Source of the DNA: Deltaproteobacteria bacterium
GTDB taxonomy: Bacteria > Desulfobacterota > GWC2-55-46
Assembly: GCA_019912665.1 (NCBI GenBank)
Contig: JAIOIE010000018.1
Span: 751,433 to 815,432, forward strand
Length of the DNA stretch: 64,000 nucleotides
Direction: 5' to 3'
The position numbers and the translations under genes are program-made. The notes beneath the pieces are model-generated. The model made no database searches. It was not told the DNA's origin and was given only the letters and a program-made list of their open reading frames with translations. This document shows, piece after piece, positions 1 through 33,495 of this stretch. Numbering within the stretch: the stretch's first letter is position 1; each line of letters opens with the position of its first letter.

Positions 1-555
1 GACATCCTGCCTGTGATTGTTGGACTCGTGGCCCGCATCATCTATCAGGTGCAATTCTGGACGGACCGTGGCAAACGCAAGCCTATGGCTTTTGTCTGCG
101 ACGAGGCGCATCTCTATCTACCTAAGAAGGACGGACGAAACCCCGTTGAGCAGCGTGCAATCGAAAACTTTGAGAAGATCGCGAAGGAAGGCCGGAAGTA
201 TGGCGTCTCATTGCTAATTGTCAGTCAGCAGCCTTCCGATGTGAGCACAACCATACTGAGCCAATGCAACAATGTCGTCGCCTTGCGCCTAACCAACGGC
301 GACGACCAGGCCACGGTCAAGAGGTTCATGCCGGAAAGTCTTGAAGGACTGATGGACACGCTGCCCATTCTGGATGTTGGCGAGGCGCTGATTGTGGGTG
401 ACGCCGTGTTGTTACCGAGCAGAATCCGGATTCATCCCCCCAAAGAGAAGCCGCTCAGTGCGACAATTGATTTCTGGGATGAATGGAGCAAGAAGCCTGA
501 AATTCCCGACTTAACCAAGGCCATCGAGAATATGAGAAGGCAGAATAGGAGTTGA
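1..555 (+). CDS. HerA-like (DUF87) ATPase, C-terminal part; the gene continues upstream of the window
   Basis: The frame is open from nt 1. It has a Walker-B-like CDEAHLYLP motif followed by GRKYGVSLLIVSQQP...ILSQCNNVVALRL, which is typical of HerA/VirB4-type ATPases. Confidence 0.6.
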   Translation, partial: DILPVIVGLVARIIYQVQFWTDRGKRKPMAFVCDEAHLYLPKKDGRNPVEQRAIENFEKIAKEGRKYGVSLLIVSQQPSDVSTTILSQCNNVVALRLTNGDDQATVKRFMPESLEGLMDTLPILDVGEALIVGDAVLLPSRIRIHPPKEKPLSATIDFWDEWSKKPEIPDLTKAIENMRRQNRS

Positions 556-655: not shown

Positions 656-2866
656 CTAGTGAGCACCTATTATTTGTTTAAGCATGTACTGCGCTCCTTC
701 TAAATCCATCTTTGATGAGAGATAGTCTGCGCACATAAGATCTTCAGAGAGAAAATTATCGTATTTTGCAGAGGGTTTATTTTTGATCGTCCTTGCCAGC
801 TCCAATGCCTCTATTGATTCTTTTGCTACGTTTTTCAGATAGCCCGTGAGTTCTTCTTCGGTCGTATCAAGAACCGTTATAGCTATCCCGTCATTTTCTG
901 CTTTAATGCCGTTATTTCTAAGCAAGGCTGTTATTGTATCCATAACCTTATCCCCTCTCCAGCAAAAGAAAAGCAAATTTTTTCCATTTTGGAGTATATG
1001 CTTATTCTCCAATCCGTATCGATTGAAGTAATACCTTGCCTCTCCAAGAAGCTCCTTTGCTGTTGGATCCAGAAAAACGGGGATGTCATTTTCTGTATAG
1101 ATCTTATACATCTCCTGACGGATACTGTCATGCACCCATCCGGCTTGACCACCGAATGAAGGTGGCCGCCCACCCTTGGCTGGTATCAACTCAATTATTT
1201 TCTTTTGCTGATCGATACCAGTAACCTCCCAACGCCTGCCCCCGAATATCAAAAGTGAACCTTCGCTTAGTGGTCGGTCTATTGGCAGCGTCCCTAAAGT
1301 TTTTCCTCTTGTTATGAGTCTGTATTCCTCAGGCGTTATAAACGCAGTATAAAAAGAATAATGATTGACAATCTTCTCACCAAGTCTTCCATGCAGCAGC
1401 AGCCCATCGTTTGTCTGTGCAAGAAGGCCCTCATTCCCCATGCATCTTAAAAGCTCGATGAACTGTTTCTTATTTAGTAAATCGAATGGTCCATTATTGC
1501 AAAGTAAGTCCCAGGCCTGAGAGGCGGTAACACCTCCATATTGAGCGATGAGAGATAATATTTGTTGAATCAGGGTCGAGAGATGGAATGATTTTGCTGG
1601 CGGAGGCTCATACCATTTTAAAAGTAACAGTCTAACCATCGCAATGGATTGAACAAGATTGGCTCTTAAAGTGTCCTGGAGAGGGGTACTATTAGTAATC
1701 TCCTGCTCAGTAATATAAATTCGAAGAATCGCCGGGTCTCCGCGTCTGCCTGAACGGCCGAGACGCTGCCTCATGCTGGCAACGGATGGAGAAACGCCAA
1801 TCTGGGCTATGCTGGTAACTGAGCCTATATCGATTCCCATCTCCAAAGTAGAAGTGCATACTATACTGACGGGACGGGATTTGTCCTTTATGGCCGACTC
1901 GGCTTCTTCGCGTAATTCCTTTGATAAACTCCCATGGTGAGGCCAGAATTCATTTGGGACCCTGTTTTCCTCACACATCCCGCGTAAATTGTCAGAATAT
2001 GTCTCTACACTGGCGCGTCTATTCGCGAAAATGAGATTACTGGTGCCACGTAGGGTTTTAAAAAGCGACTCTGCAATGGAAGACTCAACGGATGAATCAT
2101 CAAAAGTATCTTCCTTTAATTCATTTGAATTTTCGTCAATCTTAATCTCTTTTTCGACATAGCCTTTTAGAAGCAATTTCAATTCCTGGCCGCTTGAACG
2201 TGAAACAATCATCCTGACATCTTTACCTTGTCCTGGCCTTAAGAATTCAGCCGCAAGCAACATATCACCTATTGTAGCGCTCAGGCCGATCCTAGGAACC
2301 CTGCGTCTTATGGCGATTTCAACGCGGTGTAGTAATGACTGCAGTTGTATGCCTCTTTCAGAACCGATGAATGAATGGAGTTCATCAACTATGACATATA
2401 AAAGTCTGCTGAAAATCCTTTTAACATCATGCCCGTAGTTTACGAATATAGCTTCAAGAGATTCGGGAGTAATAAGTAAAATTCCCGCAGGCTCTTTTAC
2501 AAAGCCCTTTTTTCTGCCAGAGCCTATGTCACCATGCCATGGATAAACTTTTATGTCGAGCTCCTTGCAAAGGTCGCTAATCCTGGAAAACTGGTCATTA
2601 ATTAGGGCTTTTAGCGGACTAATATAAAGTATAGAGGCTTCAAAGTTATCTGTTTTAAGAAGCCTTGAGCAAATTGGAAGGAATGCTGCTTCGGTCTTGC
2701 CGCTTGCCGTTGCAGCGGCTATTATTACATCTGTTTTGCCTTCCAGTATGGGTTGAATGGCCTCTTCCTGGGCTTCGCGCAGCTCTGTCCAGCCTTGCTG
2801 CCATATCCATCGCTGAATCTTCTCGTCAAGAAGATAGAACGCTTTTGTCTGCTCGATGTTTTCCAT
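656..2866 (-). CDS. Superfamily-2 DEAD/DEAH-box helicase, SngC-like, with a C-terminal extension
   Basis: Motif I AATASGKTEAAFLP, motif II DELH, motif III SAT, and motif VI QRLGRSGRRG are all present. It is the third gene of a TerB-ATPase-helicase operon. Its ATG shares one nucleotide with the upstream stop (TGATG). Confidence 0.75.
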   Translation of the reverse strand: MENIEQTKAFYLLDEKIQRWIWQQGWTELREAQEEAIQPILEGKTDVIIAAATASGKTEAAFLPICSRLLKTDNFEASILYISPLKALINDQFSRISDLCKELDIKVYPWHGDIGSGRKKGFVKEPAGILLITPESLEAIFVNYGHDVKRIFSRLLYVIVDELHSFIGSERGIQLQSLLHRVEIAIRRRVPRIGLSATIGDMLLAAEFLRPGQGKDVRMIVSRSSGQELKLLLKGYVEKEIKIDENSNELKEDTFDDSSVESSIAESLFKTLRGTSNLIFANRRASVETYSDNLRGMCEENRVPNEFWPHHGSLSKELREEAESAIKDKSRPVSIVCTSTLEMGIDIGSVTSIAQIGVSPSVASMRQRLGRSGRRGDPAILRIYITEQEITNSTPLQDTLRANLVQSIAMVRLLLLKWYEPPPAKSFHLSTLIQQILSLIAQYGGVTASQAWDLLCNNGPFDLLNKKQFIELLRCMGNEGLLAQTNDGLLLHGRLGEKIVNHYSFYTAFITPEEYRLITRGKTLGTLPIDRPLSEGSLLIFGGRRWEVTGIDQQKKIIELIPAKGGRPPSFGGQAGWVHDSIRQEMYKIYTENDIPVFLDPTAKELLGEARYYFNRYGLENKHILQNGKNLLFFCWRGDKVMDTITALLRNNGIKAENDGIAITVLDTTEEELTGYLKNVAKESIEALELARTIKNKPSAKYDNFLSEDLMCADYLSSKMDLEGAQYMLKQIIGAH

Positions 2867-3451
2867 CAAAGTTTGAACTTGGCGAGATCATCATCTCTAT
2901 TGTCTATTTTGGTCAAATCAGCGGTGGTTTCAGGATTTTCTGATTCCTCTTCAAAAAAACTAAGGTCCGGCATTGTATCAGGGCGAATCTCTACTGTGCC
3001 AAGCAGGTCTTGCCATTTTGCATCTCTATTTTGTTCTAAAACAGCTAATAGATTGATGAACGAAGTGATCGTGGTGCGAGGTGTGCGGAAATAGGCGTCT
3101 CCGATGCGTTTTGAGCAGTGCTCCATGAACGCCTTAAGGCCTTCATCGGGGAGAAGATATGCCGAAATGTCGCCAAATGCGAACACATGTCTGAGTTTCC
3201 CTGTCAGTATATAGAAGTCCTCTTGGGTCAAGTTGTCGAGTCTTAATACCGGGCCGCTGTAATCGGTGAGGCCCTTGACCGCAAAGGTATTTTCAGCAAG
3301 CCTGCTCTGAAGAGCCTGATAACTGTAGAGGCCCCTCCTCGTATCCATCAAAAATTCAGGGGTTCCGCCCATGATTATACCAAGACTGGCCGCAGTTCCT
3401 TGCAGGCAGTCATTCAATATGCGCAGTATCTGTTCATAATTCGAGTTCCTT
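2866..3451 (-). pseudogene. C-terminal ~195 codons of the Shango-like ATPase (sngB-like), cut off by the IS insertion
   Basis: The reading frame is open from the IS boundary at 3451 to the stop at 2866-2868. It is in frame with the 4665..5429 piece once the IS and one copy of the duplication are removed. Confidence 0.65.
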
Positions 3452-3529
3452 GGACCTGCCCCCCGTAAACTGTGCCACTTGTAATTAGAATGGGGTCGTA
3501 ATAAAACATTCTAAACAAGGAGGCTGGGT

Positions 3530-3796
3530 ATGAAGAAGAGCCGGTACACGGAGGAGCAGATTGTAGGGATTTTGAAGGAGGGGGAGGCCGGTATCGCGGT
3601 GTCTGACCTGTGCCGCAAGTACGGGATGAGCGACGCCACCTACTACAACTGGAAGGCCAAGTACGGCGGCATGGCAATAAGCGATGTCCGGCGTCTCAAG
3701 GCGCTTGAGGACGAGAACAGGCGCCTTAAGCATCTGGTTGCCGACCTCACGCTCGATAACCAGGCTCTGAAGGCTGTCGTTGCAAAAAACTTCTAA
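3530..3796 (+). CDS. IS3-family transposase OrfA (HTH)
   Basis: Residues YTEEQIVGILKEGEAG...LCRKYGMSDATYYNWKAKYGG and a leucine zipper are present. A slippery A_AAA_AAC heptamer sits at 3784-3790. Confidence 0.85.
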   Translation: MKKSRYTEEQIVGILKEGEAGIAVSDLCRKYGMSDATYYNWKAKYGGMAISDVRRLKALEDENRRLKHLVADLTLDNQALKAVVAKNF

Positions 3797-4632
3797 AGCC
3801 CAAGGCGCGGCGGGCAGCGGCTCAGTTTGTCGTTGAAAGCTTTGGGCTGAGTCAAAGGCGAGCAAGCGTCCTGACCGGGATAGGCAGGAGCACCTACAGA
3901 TACCAGCCGCAACCTGATCAGGATGAACAGATTCGCAAGAGGATGAAAGAGCTTGCCGATTTAAAGAAGCGCTTTGGGTGCCGGAGGCTACACTTATTTC
4001 TCAAGCGCGAAGGGCTTGTTGTCAATCATAAGCGCACGGAGCGGATATACAGAGAAGAACGTCTCTCACTGCGGATCCGTAAGCGTAAAAAGAGAGCCGC
4101 TCAGGTAAGGGTTGAGTTGCCGAAGGCGACGCGTCCCAATGAGCTCTGGGCCATGGATTTCGTGCAGGACACCATGCATAACGGTAGGAAGTTCCGGCTG
4201 CTTACCATGCTGGACACGTTTACAAAAGAAAGCCTCAAGATCGAGATTGATACGTCGATTGGCGGCAAACGGGTTGCCGCTGTTTTAACCGAGGTAGGGT
4301 CTGTACGCGGGCTTCCTGAGAGCATAGTGGTTGACAACGGCCCTGAGTTCATAAGCAATGCTCTGGATGCATGGGCCTACACGCAGAAGGTGAAGCTGCA
4401 CTTCACCCGTCCAGGCAAACCCGTTGACAACGCCTATATTGAGAGCTTCAATGGAAGGCTCAGGGACGAATGCCTCAACCAGCACTGGTTTCTTTCACTT
4501 GATCATGCACGCAGGATTGTTAATGAATGGCGCAGGGACTATAACGAGGATAGGCCGCACAGTTCACTCGGAAACCTTTCTCCGAATGAATTCGCAAGGC
4601 TTCAACAGGAGAAAATGGCTGCATTAGTCTAA
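3790..4632 (+). CDS. IS3-family transposase OrfB (DDE integrase core), produced as an OrfAB fusion by a -1 frameshift
   Basis: The -1 frame from the slippery site reads KKLLKPKARRAAAQFVV...STYRYQP and continues into WAMDFVQD...DNGPEFIS...HSSLGNLSPNEF, an rve-like core. Confidence 0.8.
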   Translation, partial: LLKPKARRAAAQFVVESFGLSQRRASVLTGIGRSTYRYQPQPDQDEQIRKRMKELADLKKRFGCRRLHLFLKREGLVVNHKRTERIYREERLSLRIRKRKKRAAQVRVELPKATRPNELWAMDFVQDTMHNGRKFRLLTMLDTFTKESLKIEIDTSIGGKRVAAVLTEVGSVRGLPESIVVDNGPEFISNALDAWAYTQKVKLHFTRPGKPVDNAYIESFNGRLRDECLNQHWFLSLDHARRIVNEWRRDYNEDRPHSSLGNLSPNEFARLQQEKMAALV

Positions 4633-4664
4633 TTACGAATGGCATTATAGATGGGGGCAGGTCC

Positions 4665-5429
4665 CCTTGCCTGTGTGTTTGACAGCTTATAAAGATTTAC
4701 AAGCTCATCAATGCATACAAGAAGACCTTCGAATCCGGCAAGTCTTACGAATCTCGCCATAAGTTTGAGATGGTCATATACTGTAGCATCATCTATTATT
4801 GTCCTTACTCCAAGGGCGGTTCTGGCTTCGGTTTTAGTGGAAAACTCGGCCCTCAGCCAGCGTATTGCATCCGATTTAAGCTGCTCGTTCCCCTGGTCAT
4901 GCCCTTTCCAATATTCGGCAATGACATGGGCGAAGTCATAACCGCCTACCATCTCAGTGAGCTCTGCGAGACGTTCATGTATGATTATTTCAGGCCCTTT
5001 GCCTGTCGAGCGAGCCTCTTTCAAAGACTCGGTTACGAACCTCTCGACGATGCTTTGGAGGGCTCCACCTTCCGGTTTTGATCTTGTGGCGATATTACGC
5101 ATTAGTTCAGCGTATAACGAGCGAGCCTTGCCGCCTGTCGCATGAATGCGCCTGTCAGGGGTCAAGTCGGCGTGGACTGTTACGAGACGCTTTTCAAGGG
5201 CGATAGCCCTTATTAAATTCAGAAAAAATGTTTTTCCCGAGCCGTATTCACCAATAACAAATCTTATCGTAGACCCTTTATCGGCTATCCTGTTTATATC
5301 GTTCAGGAGGGCTTCGACCTCTTTAACACGACCTACTTGTATCAGGTGCTGTCCAAGACGCGGCACAACCCCGGCCCTTAGAGACTGAATTATGGCGTCA
5401 CGTTCCCTTTGACGTATTTTCATCTGCAA
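4665..5429 (-). pseudogene. N-terminal ~255 codons of the Shango-like P-loop ATPase (sngB-like); the reading frame runs into the IS inverted repeat
   Basis: Walker A GEYGSGKTF and Walker B LLVCIDE are present. The predicted ORF ends with IS-encoded residues RGPAPIYNAIRN. Confidence 0.65.
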
Positions 5430-7740
5430 TCTCCCTGGCTATTGTTGGATTAATCTCGATAGGGTCTTCGCCTTCAAAGAAAGGTTCCCCGTAGGTTTCA
5501 TAAGAAGCGTCATTGATGCTATCAAGAGCACCGTCAAGCATTAGATTCATTGTTGCAGCAATTTTCTCAAGTTCTTCTCTCGACCATGTATCTTTTCCGG
5601 CAAGTTTTAACATGAGTCTGGAATTTTCTACATCAAGTCCGGCCACCGTCTTTTCTTTTATATTTTTGGAAGTCTCAACCCGAGCGGTAGAAGAGGCTTC
5701 CTCATCTTCCTCGACAAAGATATTACTCAAGAGCGCAGAAACGGCGGCTGTCTCGGCAAGCTTTGCTTCGATGGTTTCCATATCAAGGGAAACAGCGGCT
5801 TTTTTCTCAGGGGCTGACGGCAAAGCGTACTTCTTTTCCGCAGATTCCTTTGGTTTTACAGTTACAGGTTCTATAGCAGCCTTATGAGCGTGGCTGTACA
5901 GGTCCTGGGCGTTGAGCCCCAATAAATTATAGATTTTACTCAATAACTTTATTTCGTTCGGGTCTATGCTTCCGTCACTCTGGGCTATACCCACCAAAAA
6001 TCTTCCAATGGTCTCGCGTTCATTTGCATCCAGAGGTTCTATCCGCTTTTTAATTCCCGTAATGCCAGGAGGCGCTGCGAGCAGACATTTGGTATAAGCT
6101 TTCAGTCTCACCTTTTCATCCATGCTCAAATGCAATAAGGATTCAAGGTGCTCTTCCAGATGTTTTTCCTCATCAACAGAGATGCTCCCATCAGCATTTG
6201 CCACCGCAGCCGACAGGTGAAGAATGCTTGCGGCAGCAAGGTACTCGGAAGTTGGCGCATTGGCGGAATCTTTCTGTACTCTAAACAGGACTGCTTTTTG
6301 TTCTGGTTTCGGCAAAGAGCTACCGAATCTTACGTCGGGTTCGATGCCTATGCCTATCTTCGAAAGTAGCTGGGCTAAAGCTACCGATTCACGCTTTGTA
6401 AATTTTTCAGTAGCAAAAGAAGGGAAAAGGCCGATAATGGTTTTTAAATCAAATATTGCGGTTTCTTGCGGTAGATTTTTATCAAGCCAGTCAAAGATGT
6501 TTTTCAACTCCTCGCTTTGATGTTTGTCTAATAGACAGTCCGGCAATAAAGCGAGCGCCTCATGCGAACTTTTTTCATCAGGATATCTTCCTATAAAGCG
6601 GCTATATGCATCCAATTCATCGACGCAAGAGTTGGCGATCTCACGCAATCTTTTAATAGGTCCGGTAACGGCTGTAACATCAGGCAGGTCGGTTTTTATT
6701 TCATATTCTTCCGCCCCAGACAATCCCGAACTCGCTGGATGATAGCCGATCTTGAGCTTTGTCTTGTTAGGTTTAAGTTTCAGTCCATCCCCAATTTCGT
6801 CTGAATAGCGAATGAGGAACAATCTCCTGAACTCTTCTTTACAACGATATGCTGGCGTCCTTAGTCTGTTTTCAGGGTCGTTTTCAACCCATGCCAGAGC
6901 CCAGTCCGCTGGCAGTGGCATGCCATCTATGGCGAGTTGCCCAAGACCAATCTTAAAACTTGTATAGTCTAATTCAATGTCTAAGTTAATAGGGTTCTTG
7001 TAAAATTTTGTTTTTAAACCTCTGGCTTGTGCAAAGCTCAGAAGCCCTGTAGCATATCTGTTAAACGAAGCATTATGGCCGTAAATTGAAAGAAGCCGGC
7101 TAATTTCGGCTGCTATAAGGTCGGCTTCTTTTCTAGCAGATTCGCTTTTTTCAAAATCAGACAGCAGGCGGCGCTCCAGGCCATAGTAATAAAGGAAGAC
7201 GTAGCCGATATTTATATCAGGATTCTTCTTGCCATTTGCAAGCCATTCAAGGTAAGCACTGCGAGATTGAGTCGTTATTTCTGAATAAGAAGGCCAATAT
7301 CTTAAATCCCGTCCCTCTTTATCAGGTGATCCTTTATCTACTGGCAAATCAGGATTGATTAGAGCCGGCTCAACACCCCATTTTGCAACGCTCTTCAACC
7401 CTGTTCCGAAATAAAGCAAACCTTCTTTTATTTTATAGCCCTTAACATCGACATACATGCCTGCCGGAGTCCATACGGAATCTGGCGAGACATCCTGTGA
7501 GAAATTAGTTGATCTTTCGGCAGGGGTATAACTCGTAGAAACTGTTATGGTAAAAGAAGGTTCGGCCTCATGCTGGCGCTCCCATATTGGGTCTTGAAGT
7601 GTATTTGATGCTTTGTGGGTTGAAGGGGCTCCGTTGTTATAGGTTGTCTTAGATTGATTCGGCTTTTTATTTCTAAGAAGGAGAGACCAAATAAGAATCC
7701 CGAATACTATCGCAACTATGACAATAAAAATAAATTCCAT
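5398..7740 (-). CDS. TerB-domain protein (SngA-like) with an N-terminal transmembrane helix
   Basis: The C-terminal region AVANADGSISVDEEKHLEEHL...GIAQSDGSIDPNEIKLLSKIYNLLGL is a TerB-like tellurite-resistance fold. The N-terminus MEFIFIVIVAIVFGILIWSLLL is hydrophobic. It is the first gene of the triad. Confidence 0.7.
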   Translation of the reverse strand: MEFIFIVIVAIVFGILIWSLLLRNKKPNQSKTTYNNGAPSTHKASNTLQDPIWERQHEAEPSFTITVSTSYTPAERSTNFSQDVSPDSVWTPAGMYVDVKGYKIKEGLLYFGTGLKSVAKWGVEPALINPDLPVDKGSPDKEGRDLRYWPSYSEITTQSRSAYLEWLANGKKNPDINIGYVFLYYYGLERRLLSDFEKSESARKEADLIAAEISRLLSIYGHNASFNRYATGLLSFAQARGLKTKFYKNPINLDIELDYTSFKIGLGQLAIDGMPLPADWALAWVENDPENRLRTPAYRCKEEFRRLFLIRYSDEIGDGLKLKPNKTKLKIGYHPASSGLSGAEEYEIKTDLPDVTAVTGPIKRLREIANSCVDELDAYSRFIGRYPDEKSSHEALALLPDCLLDKHQSEELKNIFDWLDKNLPQETAIFDLKTIIGLFPSFATEKFTKRESVALAQLLSKIGIGIEPDVRFGSSLPKPEQKAVLFRVQKDSANAPTSEYLAAASILHLSAAVANADGSISVDEEKHLEEHLESLLHLSMDEKVRLKAYTKCLLAAPPGITGIKKRIEPLDANERETIGRFLVGIAQSDGSIDPNEIKLLSKIYNLLGLNAQDLYSHAHKAAIEPVTVKPKESAEKKYALPSAPEKKAAVSLDMETIEAKLAETAAVSALLSNIFVEEDEEASSTARVETSKNIKEKTVAGLDVENSRLMLKLAGKDTWSREELEKIAATMNLMLDGALDSINDASYETYGEPFFEGEDPIEINPTIAREIADENTSKGT

Positions 7741-8100
7741 ATTTACGCGATTTGAATTCCATGTTTGATTTTATCAAAATAATTACAATTTTTATGTGTT
7801 TTGTCAAATTAAAATCAGAAGGCAAGGCCTAAATCTAAATTACTCTTTTTATTACCCTCTTATGAGCCTTATTGCCCTTTCTTCATCCCGATCTGAAGCA
7901 TTCAATTATTCATTATCTTTTGAAGGTCCTCTGCTCATTAGACGATAATATCTCCGGTTCTTACAGGTATGAGCCGTTCCGGTATCTGGCAGTATAAATT
8001 TATCCGTTAAGACATCAACTGCTGCCCTTTTTGTCTTGCCCTTTTCCTTTAAAATTTATATATTTAAAATGTATTAAACCGTTAATTAAGGAAGATTTTC
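7741..8100. promoter_or_regulatory. AT-rich divergent intergenic region between the TerB operon and hsdM, a probable promoter region
   Basis: 360 bp with no ORF and very AT-rich. An RBS AAGGAAG precedes the hsdM ATG. Confidence 0.3.
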
Positions 8101-9650
8101 ATGGCACGTCAGACAAAAGACAAAAAGACCCCCAACGGCGGCAATCTCGGCTTTGAGGAAAAGCTCTGGCAGGCCGCTGACAAGATGCGCGGCCATATGG
8201 ATGCTTCGGAATACAAGCATGTAGTCCTCGGCCTCATCTTCCTTAAATACATATCAGACGCCTTCGAAGAGAAGCATCAGAAGCTTATGGAAGATAAATT
8301 TGCCGACCCTGAAGACCGCGACGAATACACCGCTGATAATATCTTCTGGGTTCCGAAGGGTGCCCGCTGGTCTTATCTGCAGGCGAACGCCAAACAACCA
8401 ACTATCGGCAAGCTCGTTGACGATGCGATGGTTGCCATTGAAAAGGAAAACTCCCAGCTTAAAGGAGTCCTCCCCAAAGACTACGCACGCCCGACCCTTG
8501 ATAAACATACCCTAGGCGAACTCATCGATTTAATCGGCACTATCGGCCTTGGCGATGCTGAGAGCCGCTCAAAAGACATACTTGGGCGTGTATATGAATA
8601 CTTCCTTGGACGCTTTGCCGCAGTTGAAGGTAAAAGTGGTGGCGAGTTTTACACTCCTCAGTCCGTCGTAAAAATACTGGTAGAGATGATAGAGCCTTAT
8701 AAGGGTCGTGTCTTTGACCCATGTTGCGGTTCGGGCGGTATGTTTGTTCAATCGGAAAAGTTCGTCGAGGCCCACGGGGGCAGGAAGGGGGATATCTCCA
8801 TCTACGGACAGGAGTCAAACCCCACGACATGGCGTCTGTGCAAGATGAATCTTGCGATAAGAGGCATTGACGGCAATATCGGGCCTCACCATGCGGACAG
8901 CTTCAGGCAGGATATCCATAAAGACCTTAAGGCGGACTTTATCCTTGCAAATCCTCCCTTTAACATAAGTGACTGGAAAGGCGAGCTCCTGATGTCAGAT
9001 GGAAATACGGCGCTCCTCCCGTGGGCAACGCGAACTTTGCCTGGGTTCAGCACTTTATCTACCATCTTTCCCCAAGTGGTGTGGCCGGTTTTGTTCTTGC
9101 GAACGGGTCCATGAGTTCAAATACAAGCGGCGAAGGCGAGATACGAAAGAACATAATCGAAGCCGACTTGGTAGATTGCATGATAGCTCTACCCGGACAG
9201 CTCTTCTATACAACGCCGATTCCTGTGTGCCTCTGGTTTGTAGCCCGTAGTAAGAAAAACGGCAAGTTCCGTGACAGGCGCGGCCAGACGCTCTTTATCG
9301 ATGCCCGAAAAATGGGCTATTTGATAGACAGAACACACAGGGAATTGTCCGATGAAGAGATTCAACGGATAGGTAAGACCTACCATGCCTGGCGAGGTGA
9401 AAAGGAAGCCGGAAAGTATGAAGATATCCCCGGCTTTTGCAAAAGCGCCACAATCGAGGAGATACATAGTCACGGTCACGTCCTCACGCCAGGCAGATAC
9501 GTCGGAGCCGAAGAGGTAGAGGATGACGGCGAGCCGTTTGAAGAGAAGATGAAGCGCCTTACCGCAAAGCTGAGCGCGCAGTTTAAGGAATCGGAGGGGC
9601 TGGAAAAGATTATAAAGGCGAACCTGAAGAGACTGGGGTATGGCGGATAA
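8101..9650 (+). pseudogene. hsdM: Type I R-M methyltransferase subunit HsdM, with a -1 frameshift near 8985-9025
   Basis: NPPFNISDW is in frame 1 up to GELL. The canonical continuation [26 protein letters not shown] is in frame 0. Two overlapping ORFs (8101-9114 and 9021-9650) together make one HsdM. Confidence 0.8.
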
Positions 9651-10752
9651 AAGAAAAACAAAAAAATCCAAATCTGAAATTGTGCAACAGGCTGCTGCAC
9701 AATTGCTATCAACGAGCTACGCTGAATTGCTCGAAGACCTCAAAGCGCGGATTCGCGCCGCGCAGATCCGCGCAGGTCTTGCAGCCAATAGTGAATTGAT
9801 CCAGCTCTACTGGAATGTTGGACAGCAAATATTGCTCCGACAACAAAAAGAGGGATGGGGTGCGAAAGTCATTGACCGCCTTGCCCGTGATTTACGCCGT
9901 GCATTTCCTGATATGAAGGGATTTTCTCCACGCAATCTCAAATACATGCGGGCGTTTGCCGAAACATATCAGGACAAACAATTTGTGCAACAGGTTGTTG
10001 CACAAATCCCCTGGGGGCATAATGTCCGTATTCTTGACCATGTAAAAGAATCGACTCAGCGCGAATGGTATATCCGACAGACCATCCAGCACGGCTGGTC
10101 ACGAGATATCCTTATCCACCAGATAGAAAGCGGTCTCTACAGGCGGCAGGGAAAAGCCATTACCAATTTCGACCGCACCCTACCCACGCCTCAATCCGAG
10201 CTTGCCCGGCAGGTCTTGAAAGATCCGTATGTCTTCGACTTCCTGAGTATCGGTGAGGAGGCAAAGGAACGGGATCTGGAAAAGGCCCTCTTGGAGCAGA
10301 TAAGGGCTTTCCTGCTTGAGTTGGGCGTCGGGTTTGCCTTTGTCGGTAGTCAGTACCATCTGGAGGTCGGCGGTGAGGATTTCTATATAGACCTTCTATT
10401 TTATCATCTCCACCTGCGCTGTTTCGTAGTCATCGAGCTTAAGATTGGGGAATTTCAGCCAGAATACGCTGGCAAGATGAACTTTTATCTTTCGGCGGTG
10501 GATGACCTCCTGCGCCATAAAGACGATCATCCGAGCATCGGCATAATCCTGTGCAAGGCCAAAAATAAGGTGATTGCGGAATATGCGCTCCGCGATACCA
10601 GAAAGCCGATCGGCGTTTCCGGATACAAACTTACGGAAACCTTGCCGAAGAACCTTAAAGGTGAACTGCCGAGCATTAAGGAACTGGAGGGGTCAATTTC
10701 GGCGTCTACTTCTGTATCAGGCTCGCTTACAATAACCAAAGGTGATTCCTGA
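9640..10752 (+). CDS. DUF1016 / YhcG-like PDDEXK nuclease family protein
   Basis: Carries the PDDEXK core [11 protein letters not shown]...ILC and N-terminal YhcG-like residues. It sits in the usual position between hsdM and hsdS. Confidence 0.75.
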
Positions 10753-14493: not shown

Positions 14494-16413
14494 ATGGCAT
14501 TCACGGAGACACTGACAAGCTTAGCAATGCTAAAGGTCAACATTGATCAGGGTAAGGACTACCTCGAATATCTGCGACCTTTTATTCTGCAGATACTTAT
14601 TGACCAGAAGCCCGACCCCGTGACTGATGTGGTTGTCCGTGATCATCTTCGCACACAATTTGGCCTTGAGATTCCGGAGCGTGTTGCTCAGATTCTATTG
14701 AAGCGCATCTCTCGGTCGTATCTACTAAAGCGTGAAACTGGGGTATATCGAATCACGGGTACTTTACCAAACCCTGGGATTACTGCAAAGAAAACTGAAG
14801 CAGATCGACACATCAAGGCAGTGGTCTCAAGTCTGATAGAGTTCTCAAAGAACACCGCTAAGCCGATTACAACCGAAGATGAGGCGGTTACAGCCATTTG
14901 CGCATTCCTGGCAGAGTTCAATATCCCTTGTCTTCGTGCATACTTGAGAGGTACGGCCATTCCAACTGTCGAGGGCAAACACCATAGCCACATTGTGCTG
15001 GTCAGTGAGTATGTCGTACATCTGCAACGCACCAACCCTGAACGTTTTGAAAGCTTCCTCGTGGTGGTTCAAGGGCACATGCTGGCAAACGCCTTGCTTT
15101 GCCCAGACCTCCAAAACGCCCCAAAGTCATACAAGGGCGTCACTTTTTATTTAGATACCCCATTGTTGATACGACGGCTTGGGCTTGAGGGTAATCCAAA
15201 GCAGGCGGCGGCAGTAGAGCTAATCCGACTGCTGAAGAATCTTGATGCGGCCGTTGCTACGTTCGCACATTCGCGTGATGAACTGGATCGTGTGATCAGG
15301 GGCGCAGCCGATCATATAGAAGCACCGAGCGGCCGCGGGGCCATTGTTATGGAAGCAAGACGCAAAGGCACGACCAAATCTGACCTACTGCTCTTGGCAG
15401 GACAAATCGATGAGAAGCTCGCCGACTCTGGAATTGAGGTGAAGTGCACACCGAAATATATTGCAAACTTTCAGATCGATGAAACAGCTTTCGCTAAGGT
15501 ACTTGAGGATGAGGTGTCATACTTTAACTCGCGTGCCATGGATTATGATATCAACTCTGTGCGAAGTATCTATGCACTTAGGGTAAATTCGTCCCCCACG
15601 ATTGTGGAAAAGTGCGGAGCAGTTCTCGTCAGCAGTAATGAAGGTTTTGCACGGGCAGCATATGAGTACGGACAGCGGCATGAAGAGTCGCGCGAGGTGT
15701 CAAGCGTGATCACCGACTTCAGCCTGGCAAACATGGCTTGGTTGAAAGCTCCGATGGGTGCGCCGTCTCTACCGACCGCTGAGATACTCGCATTCTCTTA
15801 TGCAGCACTTCAGCCCTCAAAGGAGTTGCTTGACAAGTTTTTGGATGAGATGAATAAGTTGGAGAAACAAGGCAAGATTACTGCACGCGATCATCAGCTC
15901 CTCAGGAGTAGCACACTTGCACAAGAGGAGATGATGAGCCTGACGCTGGGAGAAGAGACAGCGCTTACCGAGAAGACGGTCACCGAGACACTGCGGCGCG
16001 TTTCAGAAGAAATCAAGAAGGAGGAAAGCGAGAAGCTTACAGCCGAGCAAATTGCTCATCGCAAAACTCAAGTTGAGCTTGATGCCGAACGTGTGACGAA
16101 AAAGCAAATTCAGGAACGGTTTTTCTGGCGATGTCTGAAGAATGCACAATACTGCGCGTGGGGGATTTCAGGGTTTATCTCTATTCTCATAATTGGTGGC
16201 ATCATTGCCGGATTCGGGCTCAAAGCGGCAAATCCTGCTCTTGGCTGGGTGCTTCTCGTAGGTTTGTCTGCACTGGCAATTGCGACAATAGCGAATCTTA
16301 TTTTCGGTGCTACTGTCCAGCAATTGCACAACTACATCGAAGAACGATGTCTTAAATTCTTTTTAAAACGCGTGTTTAAATCAAGCGGGATTGACATCGA
16401 GAATAGACTATGA
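14494..16413 (+). CDS. Hypothetical 639-aa protein with a C-terminal coiled coil and two predicted transmembrane helices
   Basis: Long ORF. The C-terminus GISGFISILIIGGIIAGFGL...WVLLVGLSALAIATIANLIFG is hydrophobic. No recognisable catalytic motif. Confidence 0.55.
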   Translation: MAFTETLTSLAMLKVNIDQGKDYLEYLRPFILQILIDQKPDPVTDVVVRDHLRTQFGLEIPERVAQILLKRISRSYLLKRETGVYRITGTLPNPGITAKKTEADRHIKAVVSSLIEFSKNTAKPITTEDEAVTAICAFLAEFNIPCLRAYLRGTAIPTVEGKHHSHIVLVSEYVVHLQRTNPERFESFLVVVQGHMLANALLCPDLQNAPKSYKGVTFYLDTPLLIRRLGLEGNPKQAAAVELIRLLKNLDAAVATFAHSRDELDRVIRGAADHIEAPSGRGAIVMEARRKGTTKSDLLLLAGQIDEKLADSGIEVKCTPKYIANFQIDETAFAKVLEDEVSYFNSRAMDYDINSVRSIYALRVNSSPTIVEKCGAVLVSSNEGFARAAYEYGQRHEESREVSSVITDFSLANMAWLKAPMGAPSLPTAEILAFSYAALQPSKELLDKFLDEMNKLEKQGKITARDHQLLRSSTLAQEEMMSLTLGEETALTEKTVTETLRRVSEEIKKEESEKLTAEQIAHRKTQVELDAERVTKKQIQERFFWRCLKNAQYCAWGISGFISILIIGGIIAGFGLKAANPALGWVLLVGLSALAIATIANLIFGATVQQLHNYIEERCLKFFLKRVFKSSGIDIENRL

Positions 16414-16472
16414 CCCCTTCAAGAATCACTGAATCTACCGCTGAAGAGGCTCTTTACGGTTGGCGAGATTGA
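16410..16472 (+). other. Duplicated hsdR 5' head fragment (MTPSRITESTAEEALYGWRD*), overlapping the orf639 stop (ATGA)
   Basis: Matches the real HsdR N-terminus [19 protein letters not shown] at 17334. Confidence 0.75.
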
Positions 16473-17125
16473 TTATAAAAAAATCTAATCGCTATGACAC
16501 CTCTGGCTTAACAGAGGCACAGTTTGAGCCTGGTTCGGGTCGGCGTGTGCTCAAGAATTTGCTCGGAATTAAGAGCAAGCGGGAGATGGACCGCATCGAA
16601 GCACTTGTTCAGCTTCCTGTTCTGGAGGAACTATCCAGCATCTATGATAAAGACCATAGGTTCACCGCCGCTGATATATGCAGGATTCACGAGATCTGGC
16701 TTGGGAGAATATATGAGTGGGCTGGACAATACAGGAGAGTAAATGTCAGCAAGGGAGACTTCCCTTTCGCAGCCGCCGGACATATACCAAGTTTAATGTC
16801 AGAGTTTGAAAAGAAGCTTCTTAAGAAATACACTCCTTGTCTTTACTCAGCACATAAAGACATAGTCAAGGCAATTGCTGTTGTCCATACAGAACTGGTT
16901 TTGATTCACCCCTTTCGCGAAGGGAACGGCAGGGTTGCCCGTATACTAAGTGCCCTGATGGCGTTACAGGCAGGATTGCCGTCACTGGATTTTACTGGAA
17001 TTAAGGGGAAGAGAAGACAAGAATACTTTGCGGCGGTAAGGGCTGGTATGGATAATAATTATGAGCCTATGGAAAAGATTTTTAACGCCGTGATTTCCCG
17101 GACACTACGGATTCAGAAAGGATAG
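16460..17125 (+). CDS. Fic/Doc family protein; start codon uncertain (TTG at 16460 or a downstream ATG)
   Basis: Fic motif HPFREGNGRVAR is present. Confidence 0.8.
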   Translation: MARLIIKKSNRYDTSGLTEAQFEPGSGRRVLKNLLGIKSKREMDRIEALVQLPVLEELSSIYDKDHRFTAADICRIHEIWLGRIYEWAGQYRRVNVSKGDFPFAAAGHIPSLMSEFEKKLLKKYTPCLYSAHKDIVKAIAVVHTELVLIHPFREGNGRVARILSALMALQAGLPSLDFTGIKGKRRQEYFAAVRAGMDNNYEPMEKIFNAVISRTLRIQKG

Positions 17126-20707: not shown

Positions 20708-22525
20708 TTGTCACCTGAGCAGATGCTAAAGTTTCTGGGTGTTTTTTCTTATAGGAGGCTGTTGATGGCTATTGATATAAATTGGTTTTTGATGACGGAT
20801 ATAAAAAAACGTTCTTTAATCAAGGCATCCTGGACTCCGTTATGCGCGTATGATGAACATACAATAAATGGAGAACCTGGCCATATTGGATATGAGAGAG
20901 AATATTTTGGATCGGTTGGTCTTATTTTCCCTATTGATCAGGCACGAGAAGCATTCTTGCTTCAATGGGATGAAGTTATCCCAAAATGGGGGCATAAGCC
21001 TTGCGTTGAAAACGGGAAATATTTTCCTGCGGATGTTTATTCTTTTTGCAATGGCTTGCTAGGTACCTATCCTGTATTACAACAGTCATTTGATAGCGGT
21101 GAGCCTTGTGTATGGCATCTGTCGCAAGACATCATTTTAGGGCTTGGATTATTACGTGAAAGAGATGGCTGGGTTCGTCCCCAAGAAGACTATTTGGAAG
21201 TTGCTCGGCTTAAGCGCATTCAGGAAGGAAAGCCTGTGCGCTTTGAAATACGAACGGAGCATCTCCGCGATTTTCTTTGCGCCAGGGAATCCGGGATATT
21301 AATTGTCACATATCATTTGAGAGAAATAATCGTGGACTCTGCACCAGATTTTGGGTGGAAGAACGGAATCGCAAATGAGACTGGAGAAAATTATCATTGG
21401 AATGGACATATTCATCCTATTCACGAAGGTGGATTCCCATTCGGAGAAAAGATAGCAGTCTTCCACATGGGTAGAACTAATATCGATCCTAATGACGATA
21501 TACCGACCTTTGGCATGCCTGGAGAAGATGAATACAAGTCGAGCTCTTGGGTAAGGACGCCTACTGGTCGGCAGCTTTTTAGCATTACGGGTGAAATGTG
21601 GAGGACCGAATGGATTCCTCCATTAGAGACTAGTCCTCGGGTCAGAGGTGATAAGGAAGAGTCACACATATCGTTTCAGATCGACAGTGCTGGAACCACT
21701 TTAGCTGGTAAGAAGCTTTATGACCATAGAGGATGGATCTGGTTCAAGCCATCAATAATTCGCACTCTGCTGGAAAAGCGAAACGGGGTTCTCGAATGGT
21801 ATACCGATGAGACTGGTTGTGTTGGCCCTGCTCCTAATATGGGAGTACATTTTGGTGTCAACGAGCTTGGCTTAATTAATGTATTGGCAAAGGATATAGC
21901 CTCATTACCAACTATCTATCAGCGCGTATGGGTGGCACACAATATACCTCCTGACGGCCGAGTTTCAAAAGAATTACTAAAGTCGCAGATGGAGGCGGAA
22001 CCAGCCGATACAAAAGCTCCGGAAGTCATACTAAAAAAGGCGATTGAACATCTTCAGAAAGCGTCCACTTATTTTCTTGGTCGGCCCATGCTCAAAGAGC
22101 ATCACATTTCAACGAAAATCGATCGTGAAATTCATAGATTCCATGGACAGAGCATGGAAGGCTTGTTTTTTCTTTGCAAAGAGTTGACAAGGTTAATAGT
22201 AGAGCGAATAGATGTCGATTTATTAAAGGAGCTTGACCCCGCTGCTGACAAAAAATTAGGCTCTATTAAGCGGCTGGAATATTTCCTTAATTCTAAAGGT
22301 TTTGAAGGACGTAAAATCATGGCAGCACTGGCTGGTGTTTACGACTTACGTATAGGGGACTCTCATTTGCCTTCTACAGAGATTACGGAATCTTTGAAAC
22401 TGCTGGGCATTGGAGACACTGGTGATTACCAGAAAATGGCGAAACAAATAATTCTTTCCGTTGCGTATTCTATAGGGACAATAGGAGATATCATAATAAA
22501 GTCTAGCAAAGACAATAGGGCTTAG
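20708..22525 (+). CDS. Hypothetical 605-aa protein at the island edge, no recognisable domains
   Basis: Long ORF with lower GC than the core. The start may be the internal ATG at codon 20. Confidence 0.5.
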   Translation: MSPEQMLKFLGVFSYRRLLMAIDINWFLMTDIKKRSLIKASWTPLCAYDEHTINGEPGHIGYEREYFGSVGLIFPIDQAREAFLLQWDEVIPKWGHKPCVENGKYFPADVYSFCNGLLGTYPVLQQSFDSGEPCVWHLSQDIILGLGLLRERDGWVRPQEDYLEVARLKRIQEGKPVRFEIRTEHLRDFLCARESGILIVTYHLREIIVDSAPDFGWKNGIANETGENYHWNGHIHPIHEGGFPFGEKIAVFHMGRTNIDPNDDIPTFGMPGEDEYKSSSWVRTPTGRQLFSITGEMWRTEWIPPLETSPRVRGDKEESHISFQIDSAGTTLAGKKLYDHRGWIWFKPSIIRTLLEKRNGVLEWYTDETGCVGPAPNMGVHFGVNELGLINVLAKDIASLPTIYQRVWVAHNIPPDGRVSKELLKSQMEAEPADTKAPEVILKKAIEHLQKASTYFLGRPMLKEHHISTKIDREIHRFHGQSMEGLFFLCKELTRLIVERIDVDLLKELDPAADKKLGSIKRLEYFLNSKGFEGRKIMAALAGVYDLRIGDSHLPSTEITESLKLLGIGDTGDYQKMAKQIILSVAYSIGTIGDIIIKSSKDNRA

Positions 22526-33161: not shown

Positions 33162-33269
33162 TAGTCCCTTGCTGGGGGGCATTTTTTACGCATTGACCGC
33201 ATTTTTCCTTGTAGAAAAAAAGTGCCTTGACAACCTGTCCGGCTTTAGCGTAGACTTGCCACCTAAAAT

Positions 33270-33435
33270 CTGGGCGGCCCTGCAGGGCCTTAATAGGGAA
33301 GAACGGTGCGAAACCGTCGCGGACCCGCCGCTGTAACCGGGGACGAAAGCCGCAGTCAAGGAAGCCACTGTCCGGAAAGGACGGGAAGGCGCGGCGAGTA
33401 GGACGAACTGGGAGCCAGAAGACCTGCCCCGATAA
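33270..33435 (+). ncRNA. Cobalamin (B12) riboswitch aptamer
   Basis: AGGGAAGAACGGTGCGAAACCGTCGCGGACCCGCCGCTGTAACCGGGGACGAAAGCC...GCCACTG...GGGAGCCAGAAGACCTGCC matches the conserved core and the B12 box. Confidence 0.8.
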
Positions 33436-33495
33436 TCATAGACATGCCCGCCTCCGTGGTTGGAGGCAAGGCTTATATTCGAGGATGAAAAACGG

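What the first reader, a model, noticed from the sequence alone, without database searches (positions are those of the whole stretch)
2866..5429. IS3-family element splits the ATPase of a TerB-ATPase-helicase system; precise excision restores the frame
The IS spans 3452-4664 and has ~38-bp imperfect inverted repeats. It is flanked by a direct CCTT duplication at 3448-3451 and 4665-4668. Removing the IS plus one duplication copy (1217 bp) joins the minus-strand ORF 4665-5429 to the open frame 2866-3451 without a stop. The join reads ...LYKLSNTQA|RNSNYEQILRILNDCLQG... and gives a ~449-aa ATPase. The defence operon therefore looks freshly knocked out at its middle gene, with flanking genes intact, which suggests a recent event.
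Basis: seen in the sequence. Interest (0 to 1): 0.6.

Follow-up and report, generated by a model that had tools for sequence, protein, structure and literature searches.

The report
Insertion sequence disrupts Shango defence ATPase
A 1.2-kb jumping gene (an IS3-family insertion sequence) has landed in the middle gene of a known three-gene anti-phage system called Shango and switched it off. This is a correct reading of the sequence, but an ordinary kind of event.

Summary
Window 3452-4664 is a 1213-bp IS3-family element. It has a 12-bp perfect / ~38-bp imperfect terminal inverted repeat, an orfA/orfB pair with an A_AAA_AAC slippery site, and a 4-bp CCTT target duplication.

Its boundaries are fixed independently by a second, 100% identical copy elsewhere that has different flanks and a GATC duplication.

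Deleting the IS plus one CCTT copy (1217 bp) fuses the two minus-strand fragments into a 446-448-aa protein. This protein matches the PADLOC SngB profile end to end (E 1.5e-185). It aligns without any gap near the junction to 120 of 120 intact homologues. The insertion sits between invariant R255 and near-invariant N256.

The neighbours are full-length SngA (TerB) and SngC (helicase), so this is a Shango system with sngB knocked out.

The restored protein shows no decay, which fits a young event. However, every public assembly of this strain (about 8 samples) already carries the insertion, and no intact allele above 78% identity exists. It is therefore fixed in the populations assembled so far, not caught in the act.

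IS3 elements transpose by copy-out-paste-in, so "precise excision" is a bookkeeping test, not an expected reversal. The adjacent hsdM gene is also frameshifted. Interest is low.

The parts
656..2866 (-). sngC, the Shango DEAD/DEAH (Lhr/BrxHI-like) helicase, 736 aa, full length. Its ATG overlaps the sngB stop codon (ATGA at 2866-2863).
   Evidence: PADLOC SngC 2.8e-281, residues 9-731 on profile 4-718 of 720. Pfam DEAD and Helicase_C. The overlap is read directly from the sequence.
2866..3451 (-). 3' fragment of sngB (codons 256-448 plus stop). It has no start codon of its own at the break; the first in-frame start is TTG at 3417.
   Evidence: In-silico fusion; ORF list; alignment to 120 homologues.
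3448..3451 (.). Left copy of the 4-bp target-site duplication, CCTT.
   Evidence: The 4-bp length is corroborated by the GATC duplication at the second insertion site.
3452..4664 (+). IS3-family insertion sequence (IS407-group-like), 1213 bp, 52.9% GC. The transposase is antisense to the sng operon.
   Evidence: Boundaries come from contigs with different flanks: L087 matches from 3452, L089 matches 3452-4664, and L090 also agrees. Family assignment.
3452..3489 (+). Left terminal inverted repeat (IRL). The first 12 nt, GGACCTGCCCCC, are a perfect match to the right end.
3530..3796 (+). orfA, 88 aa, HTH_Tnp_1 DNA-binding protein.
   Evidence: Pfam PF01527, 9.2e-24.
3784..3790 (+). A_AAA_AAC slippery heptamer, the candidate programmed -1 frameshift site joining orfA to orfB.
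   Evidence: Read from the sequence. The fusion made at this site gives a 367-aa protein that matches transpos_IS3 end to end. The downstream stem is not better than shuffled sequence.
3790..4632 (+). orfB frame (HTH_21 plus the rve DDE catalytic core). The first in-frame start codon is ATG at 3943.
   Evidence: Pfam rve_3 2.4e-30, rve 4.6e-19, HTH_21 6.7e-10.
4628..4664 (-). Right terminal inverted repeat (IRR).
4665..4668 (.). Right copy of the target-site duplication, CCTT.
4665..5429 (-). 5' fragment of sngB (codons 1-255), carrying Walker A (GEYGSGKT) and Walker B (LLVCIDE). As it stands, the ORF reads 10 codons on into the IS (…QAR-GPAPIYNAIRN) and stops at 4629-4631.
   Evidence: Gene calls of 263-264 aa with PF10923 in independent assemblies.
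5398..7740 (-). sngA, 780 aa, with an N-terminal hydrophobic segment followed by TerB_N, TerB and TerB_C domains. Full length.
   Evidence: Pfam 2.2e-54, 8.1e-12 and 1.8e-27. PADLOC SngA 5.3e-100.
7779..7807 (-). Best sigma-70-like promoter match upstream of sngA (TTGACA-17-AATTAT with an extended TG), a candidate operon promoter.
   Evidence: This is a consensus match only, and the number of sites in the region is not above the shuffled expectation.

Best explanation
A resident, multi-copy IS3-family insertion sequence (IS407-group-like, 1213 bp) transposed into sngB. sngB is the ATPase gene of a horizontally acquired, lower-GC Shango anti-phage operon (sngA-sngB-sngC) in a Desulfobacterota genome.

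What is shown:
- Integration duplicated the 4-bp target CCTT.
- It cut SngB between R255 (invariant) and N256 (118 of 120), 13 residues after Walker B.
- The N-terminal 255 residues now end in 10 IS-encoded residues.
- The C-terminal 193 codons have lost their start.

What is inferred:
- sngC normally starts on the sngB stop codon (ATGA overlap). It now lies behind an antisense 1.2-kb insert and is probably poorly expressed.
- The three-gene system is therefore most likely non-functional.
- The event is young in terms of sequence decay, but it is already fixed in the sampled populations.
- Reversion would need a rare, transposase-independent deletion between the two 4-bp repeats, an IEE-type excision factor, or recombination with an intact allele.
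For: - IS anatomy and family.
- Boundaries and 4-bp duplication confirmed by a second identical copy with GATC flanks that also splits an ORF in frame.
- Restored SngB matches the PADLOC SngB profile 3-438 of 439 in one stretch (E 1.5e-185), and Pfam BrxC_BrxD 1-412 of 414.
- No gaps within 15 residues of the junction in 120 of 120 homologues; R255, N258, Y259 and E260 are invariant.
- 71 of 77 related genomic loci have an uninterrupted gene.
- SngA and SngC are full length.
- Both IS junctions are present in independent assemblies (ENA ERZ24842206; Logan SRR15661994/95/98/99 and SRR31740696/98). Contigs stop 30 or 55 nt inside the IS, as expected when an assembler meets a repeat.
- No decay: 82 of 82 invariant and 125 of 128 near-invariant residues are kept, against a median of 2 deviations in intact homologues.
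- GC content is 44.5% in the operon, 52.9% in the IS and 53.5% in the window.
- Shango is an experimentally shown three-gene anti-phage system: PMC10250203 and 10.1101/2022.05.11.491447.
- IS insertions that inactivate defence genes have a precedent in cas genes: PMC10359306.
Against: - Loss of function is inferred, not measured.
- Neither paper read here tested whether each Shango gene is individually required.
- IS407-group elements can carry outward promoters that drive neighbouring genes (PMC3281130), so sngC may still be transcribed. No such site was seen on the relevant side in a sigma-70 consensus scan.
- The terminal dinucleotides are GG...CC rather than the TG...CA typical of the IS3 family.
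- Population heterogeneity could not be tested, because reads cannot be mapped here.
Confidence: 0.93

Rival explanations
1. Assembly artefact: a repeated IS was threaded into sngB by the assembler, and the real genome has an intact gene.
For: The IS is a repeat that breaks short-read assemblies. At least one public contig (L087) is a chimera that joins the left flank of one IS copy to the right flank of another.
Against: - Both junctions (sngB-3'/IS and IS/sngB-5') are found separately in several independent assemblies from different runs, reading 30-55 nt into the IS.
- L087 and L088 carry the IS contiguous with the sngB 5' part.
- A clean 4-bp duplication flanks the element.
- No intact allele more than 78% identical exists among 5.8 billion proteins that include these same samples.
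- The empty-site 26-mer is absent from the JGI metagenome contigs.
Confidence: 0.02
2. The insertion is one state of a mixed or reversible population. It would act as an on/off switch of Shango, with empty-site cells coexisting or regenerated by excision, for example through an IEE-like IS-excision enhancer.
For: - Excision of the IS plus one duplication copy restores a perfect gene.
- IEE proteins are reported to promote excision of IS3-family elements (10.1101/2023.06.07.543989).
- The restored gene is undecayed.
Against: - No empty-site contig or protein was found in any sample.
- Logan contigs run through the junction without a branch there.
- IS3 transposition itself does not excise the donor copy.
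- The direct repeats are only 4 bp, so spontaneous precise deletion should be very rare.
- No IEE gene was looked for, because the rest of the genome is not available here.
Confidence: 0.04
3. The system is still partly functional. The fragments, or SngA plus SngC alone, could retain activity, with sngC driven by an IS-borne outward promoter.
For: - sngA and sngC are intact.
- IS407-group elements can provide outward promoters (PMC3281130).
- The N-terminal fragment keeps Walker A and Walker B.
Against: - The break is inside a motif that is invariant in 120 homologues.
- The C-terminal 193 residues have no start codon at the break.
- No promoter-like site points out of the IS left end.
- Shango is always found as a three-gene unit.
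Confidence: 0.05

Closest known systems
Shango anti-phage system (SngA TerB-domain protein, SngB ATPase, SngC helicase; Millman et al. 2022, Johnson et al. 2023)
   Same: - Same three genes in the same order in one operon.
- All three match the PADLOC Sng profiles nearly end to end.
- It sits in a defence island next to SIR2-HerA and a type I restriction-modification system.
   Different: - sngB is interrupted by an IS, so the locus is a pseudogenised copy.
- SngA is longer (780 aa against a 528-position profile) and has an N-terminal hydrophobic segment.
- The host is a Desulfobacterota metagenome-assembled genome, not E. coli or Pseudomonas.
IS407 group of the IS3 family (for example the Ralstonia/Burkholderia/Paracoccus elements found; ISPam3, ISPfe1 and ISPmar2 in PMC3281130)
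   Same: - Length of about 1.2 kb.
- orfA/orfB with a -1 frameshift.
- 4-bp target duplication.
- The terminal motif (T/G)GACCTGCCCCC is shared with a Ralstonia relative that also has a 4-bp duplication (L093).
- Size and duplication length fit the IS407-group table in PMC3281130.
   Different: - Only 50-55% amino-acid identity to the nearest plasmid-borne relatives.
- Termini are GG...CC instead of TG...CA.
- ISfinder was not available, so it cannot be named or shown to be unnamed.
BREX BrxD ATPase with the BrxHI helicase
   Same: SngB and BrxD share the Pfam family PF10923. SngC is the closest relative of BrxHI (PADLOC 2.5e-122).
   Different: SngB scores 142.8 bits against the NCBIfam BrxD equivalog, below its cutoff of 350. 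The PADLOC SngB score is far higher than the BrxD score. The partner is a TerB protein, and none of the scanned ORFs between 1 and about 40 kb matched a BREX methylase or PglZ.
IS insertions that inactivate CRISPR-Cas genes (PMC10359306)
   Same: A natural IS transposition into a defence gene abolishes an immune system. A clean insertion with its target duplication is visible in the genome sequence.
   Different: The target here is Shango, not cas genes. No selection experiment or self-targeting rationale is available.

Membership tests
IS3 family of insertion sequences | Transposase made as an OrfAB fusion from two consecutive frames (0 and -1). The N-terminal part is an HTH domain and the C-terminal part is a DDE (rve) domain. 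| tested here: met
   - orfA has HTH_Tnp_1 and orfB has HTH_21/rve/rve_3, in the -1 frame relative to orfA.
- The fusion made at A_AAA_AAC gives 367 aa, scoring 304.6 bits on NCBIfam transpos_IS3 against a cutoff of 160, profile positions 1-368 of 369.
IS3 family of insertion sequences | Terminal inverted repeats and a 3-5 bp target-site duplication. | tested here: met
   12-bp perfect / ~38-bp imperfect inverted repeats. 4-bp duplications at two independent sites, CCTT and GATC.
IS3 family of insertion sequences | Termini 5'-TG...CA-3'. This is typical of most members rather than strictly defining (from my own knowledge of the family). | tested here: not met
   The ends are GG...CC in both copies. 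A Ralstonia relative has TGACCTGCCCCC...GGGGGCAGGTCA.
IS3 family of insertion sequences | Copy-out-paste-in transposition through a circular intermediate. | not testable with these tools
   Needs detection of IS circles or a transposition assay. At least two identical copies are consistent with replicative spread.
IS407 group (IS3 family) | Length of about 1.1-1.4 kb, a 4-bp duplication, and a transposase that clusters with IS407-type elements. | tested here: inconclusive
   Length (1213 bp) and the 4-bp duplication fit the IS407-group entries in PMC3281130. The nearest relatives are Burkholderia, Ralstonia and Paracoccus IS3 elements at 50-55% identity. No phylogeny or ISfinder comparison was possible.
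Shango defence system | Operon of a TerB-domain protein (SngA), a PF10923 ATPase (SngB) and a DEAD/DEAH helicase (SngC). | tested here: met
   PADLOC SngA 5.3e-100, restored SngB 1.5e-185, SngC 2.8e-281. The genes are adjacent and overlapping on one strand.
Shango defence system | All three genes intact. | tested here: not met
   sngB is split after codon 255 by the IS. The locus is a disrupted Shango system.
Shango defence system | Confers protection against phage. | not testable with these tools
   Shown for the E. coli and P. aeruginosa systems only.
BREX (BrxD/BrxHI module) | The ATPase reaches the BrxD equivalog score, and the core genes PglZ and PglX/BrxX are nearby. | tested here: not met
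   142.8 bits against a cutoff of 350. None of the scanned ORFs between 1 and about 40 kb matched PglZ or a BREX methylase.

The most novel reading that the evidence does not exclude
IS-mediated shut-off of Shango could be recurrent and selected, for instance because the system is costly or auto-toxic in these anaerobes, rather than an accident. Two observations hint at this. First, the insertion is fixed in every sample of this strain while the gene remains otherwise perfect. Second, another lineage (Nitrospirae MAG, L072) has its sngB cut by a different IS3-like element at about residue 214. A related possibility is that this IS is active despite non-canonical GG...CC termini.
Probability: 0.08. 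Interest if true: 0.4.

Novelty: new member of a known kind. Interest (0 to 1): 0.15.

Why it matters
It matters mainly for annotation. Tools that predict defence systems would either miss this Shango locus or call it intact, whereas it is a recently inactivated one.

It adds an example outside CRISPR-Cas of insertion sequences disabling bacterial immunity. It also shows a defence island with two separate lesions, the IS in sngB and a frameshift in hsdM.

It defines a previously uncharacterised IS3-family element whose ends are precisely mapped at two sites. It does not open a new mechanism.

Tried and rejected
- **Empty-site allele in metagenomes.** The 26-mer spanning the reconstructed junction gave no match in the JGI metagenome contigs.
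- **Best intact homologues.** They are only 77-78% identical, both in the protein database and in GTDB genomes, so no same-strain intact allele was found.
- **More IS copies in JGI metagenomes.** A scan with the left-end 30-mer gave no match.
- **Megablast of the IS against plasmids.** Only short matches of 76-83% identity over about 10% of the element.
- **Frameshift-stimulating RNA structure.** A 10-bp stem lies 7 nt after the slippery site, but the fold is no better than shuffled sequence (z = -0.2), so it is not claimed.
- **Outward promoter from the IS towards sngC.** None was found by a sigma-70 consensus scan, and the total number of sites is not above chance.
- **5-bp duplication (CCTTG) with an IS one base shorter.** Rejected, because the second insertion site has GATC|...|GATCA.
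- **Solved structures related to SngB by sequence.** None found.
- **BrxD membership.** Rejected on the NCBIfam cutoff.


Full report
**1. The observation**

I read window 2700-5600 and listed the ORFs. The sequence GGACCTGCCCCC at 3452-3463 is the exact reverse complement of 4653-4664. With one single-base indel (six Cs on the left, five on the right) the inverted repeat continues at 73% identity to 3489 / 4628, giving about 38 bp. The 12-mer occurs only at these two places in the 64-kb window, even with one mismatch allowed.

CCTT lies immediately outside both ends, at 3448-3451 and 4665-4668. Removing 3452-4668, or equivalently 3448-4664, leaves a 1347-nt open frame on the minus strand: 448 codons plus a stop. 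It reads ...LYKLSNTQAR|NSNYEQILRILNDCLQG... across the join. The "~449 aa" figure counts the stop codon. The likely start is ATG 5423 (446 aa), which gene callers chose in independent assemblies.

**2. The inserted element**

- orfA (3530-3796, 88 aa) is an HTH_Tnp_1 protein.
- The -1 frame from 3790 to 4632 carries HTH_21, rve and rve_3.
- The two frames overlap at A_AAA_AAC (3784-3790).
- A fusion made at that site gives a 367-aa OrfAB. It scores 304.6 bits on NCBIfam transpos_IS3 (cutoff 160) over profile positions 1-368 of 369.
- A stem follows the slippery site, but it folds no better than shuffled sequence, so I do not claim a stimulatory structure.

An exact look-up of the OrfB protein found contigs in other public assemblies that carry the same 1213 bp at 100% identity with different flanks. 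L089 matches window 3452-4664 and then diverges. L087 diverges to the left of 3452. L090 adds only 3 nt on the left. Those foreign flanks end and begin with GATC. Joined with one GATC copy removed, they read through a single ORF in frame (...DEIFRLD|QEIAKVGEL...).

So there is a second insertion site with its own 4-bp duplication. This fixes the IS ends at GG...CC and the duplication length at 4 bp. It also excludes the alternative of a CCTTG duplication.

The nearest relatives among plasmid records are Burkholderia, Ralstonia and Paracoccus IS3-family elements at 50-55% amino-acid identity, always in two frames. A Ralstonia relative (L093) ends TGACCTGC[T/C]CCC... and has a 4-bp duplication, CAAT. 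Length, duplication size and terminal motif match the IS407 group as tabulated in PMC3281130. Subgroup membership is inferred, not tested by phylogeny.

**3. The interrupted gene and its operon**

- The restored protein matches PADLOC SngB in one stretch (residues 2-447 on profile 3-438 of 439, E 1.5e-185). It also matches Pfam BrxC_BrxD (profile 1-412 of 414, E 4e-154).
- Against the NCBIfam BrxD equivalog it scores 142.8 bits, below the 350 cutoff. It is therefore SngB-type, not BrxD.
- The upstream gene (5398-7740, minus strand) has TerB_N, TerB and TerB_C domains and matches SngA (5e-100).
- The downstream gene (656-2866, minus strand) is a DEAD/Helicase_C protein matching SngC (2.8e-281, profile 4-718 of 720).

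This is the Shango system. It was described as a three-gene anti-phage system (TerB protein, ATPase, helicase) in E. coli and P. aeruginosa, and its mechanism is unknown (10.1101/2022.05.11.491447, PMC10250203). No solved structure is related to SngB by sequence.

**4.

A search of 5.8 billion proteins returned thousands of homologues. The best are 77-78% identical over 99-100% of the query and are 444-452 aa long. I aligned the 120 best. None has a gap within 15 residues of the junction. The junction falls between R255 (invariant) and N256 (118 of 120), inside the motif QARNSNYEQILRILND, 13 residues after Walker B.

In GTDB genomes, 71 of 77 related loci give one full-length tblastn segment. 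Of the rest, three are cut by contig ends (L050, L060, L074), two are frameshifted (L061, L075), and one (L072) is cut by a different IS-like element. The reconstruction is therefore exact.

**5. How recent, and how fixed**

The restored protein keeps all 82 invariant residues and 125 of 128 near-invariant ones. Intact homologues tested the same way deviate at a median of 2 positions. The duplication is perfect and the IS is identical to its other copy. All of this fits a young insertion.

Against a very fresh or polymorphic event, exact look-ups of this strain's SngC and SngA found it in an ENA assembly and in several Logan assemblies. The ENA assembly is ERZ24842206, whose bin label is Desulfobacterota_UBA5799. 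The Logan assemblies are SRR15661994, 95, 98 and 99 and SRR31740696 and 98. Contigs that reach a junction stop 30 nt (Logan) or 55 nt (ENA) inside the IS, which is the signature of an assembler meeting a repeat. None continues into an intact gene.

An intact allele would have been the top hit, and it is not there. The empty-site 26-mer is absent from the JGI metagenome contigs. I could not map reads, so a rare empty-site subpopulation cannot be excluded.

**6. Mechanism and consequences**

What is shown:
- The position of the break.
- The truncated product (255 residues plus GPAPIYNAIRN).
- The 3' fragment has no start codon at the break.
- The sngB stop and the sngC start overlap (ATGA).
- The IS is antisense to the operon.

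What is inferred:
- Loss of SngB function.
- Reduced sngC expression.
- Loss of Shango defence.

IS407-group elements can carry outward promoters (PMC3281130), so sngC transcription cannot be ruled out. A sigma-70 consensus scan found no such site on that side of the IS.

"Precise excision" is only a way of showing that nothing else is wrong with the gene. IS3-family elements transpose by copy-out-paste-in and leave the donor copy in place. Reversion would require rare slippage between 4-bp repeats, an IEE-type excision factor (10.1101/2023.06.07.543989) or recombination.

The operon has 44.5% GC, against 53.5% for the window and 52.9% for the IS. This suggests a resident IS hitting a horizontally acquired island.

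**7. Context**

The locus lies in a defence island. Its contents, in order, are:
- SIR2-HerA upstream. Window 13-555 is the HerA C-terminus, and L078 shows the SIR2_2 and HerA genes.
- Shango.
- A type I restriction-modification system (hsdM, hsdS, hsdR), interspersed with a DUF1016/YhcG nuclease (PDC-S02), an SLFN_AlbA_2 protein and a Fic protein (PDC-S04).
- Four large ORFs with no Pfam or PADLOC match.
- RadC at about 29 kb, followed by sensor-regulator genes.

hsdM is itself split by a frameshift near 8990-9000. The same DNA is 100% identical in three independent assemblies. The island thus carries two separate lesions.

**8. Comparison with known cases and verdict**

This is a known kind of event, IS inactivation of a defence gene (compare cas genes in PMC10359306). 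It affects a known system (Shango) and is caused by a member of a known IS family. The element itself appears undescribed in the collections available here.

The finding is correct but ordinary, and interest is low.

Noticed in passing
window 8101-9650: The type I restriction-modification methylase gene hsdM, next to Shango, is split by a frameshift near 8990-9000. The 8101-9114 piece carries HsdM_N plus N6_Mtase profile positions 2-147. The 9021-9650 piece carries N6_Mtase positions 159-311. The DNA is 100% identical in three independent assemblies (L084-L086), so the frameshift is real. It is a second inactivated defence gene in the same island.
   Followed up: partly
L087 1-408 and L089 1214-1484: A second, 100% identical copy of the IS sits at another site with a GATC duplication. 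It splits a low-GC (39%) ORF that appears to start with a hydrophobic, signal-like segment. The joined flanks read through in frame. Whether this site is in the same genome is unknown.
   Followed up: partly
L087 (Logan SRR15661995 contig): This contig joins the left flank of the GATC copy to the right flank (sngB 5' part) of the CCTT copy through the IS. It is most likely a repeat-induced assembly chimera.
   Followed up: partly
L072 602-2400 (Nitrospirae MAG WY2.bin87): The most similar SngB by tblastn (80% identity) is cut after about residue 214 by a different IS3-like element (rve ORF at 1262-1870, HTH ORF at 2038-2331). It is followed by what look like mutL, dut and peptidase genes, with no sngB 3' part and no sngC. 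This could be an independent IS-linked loss of Shango, or a misassembly of a contig with very low coverage.
   Followed up: partly
window 3452-3463 / 4653-4664; L093 ~356 and 1528-1544: The IS ends with GG...CC rather than the TG...CA usual for IS3-family elements. A Ralstonia relative has TGACCTGCCCCC ends and a 4-bp CAAT duplication. Two identical copies with clean duplications suggest that the GG/CC variant is transposition-competent.
   Followed up: partly
window 14494-16413, 20708-22525, 22938-24509, 25437-27278: Four large ORFs (523-639 aa) inside the defence island have no Pfam or PADLOC match. They are possible uncharacterised defence genes.
   Followed up: no
window 9640-10752 and 16460-17125: A DUF1016/YhcG PDDEXK nuclease (PADLOC candidate PDC-S02) is inserted between hsdM and hsdS. 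A small Fic protein (PDC-S04) lies before hsdR.
   Followed up: no
window 656-7740 vs whole window: The sng operon has 44.5% GC, against 53.5% for the window and 52.9% for the IS. This suggests that the defence island was acquired horizontally and that the IS is resident in the host.
   Followed up: partly
L061 and L075: sngB homologues in two other MAGs are broken into 3-4 frames over short distances. These are probably frameshift errors in the assemblies, or further pseudogenes.
   Followed up: no
window 33255-33445: Cobalamin riboswitch (Rfam RF00174, 112.9 bits) on the plus strand, outside the defence island.
   Followed up: no
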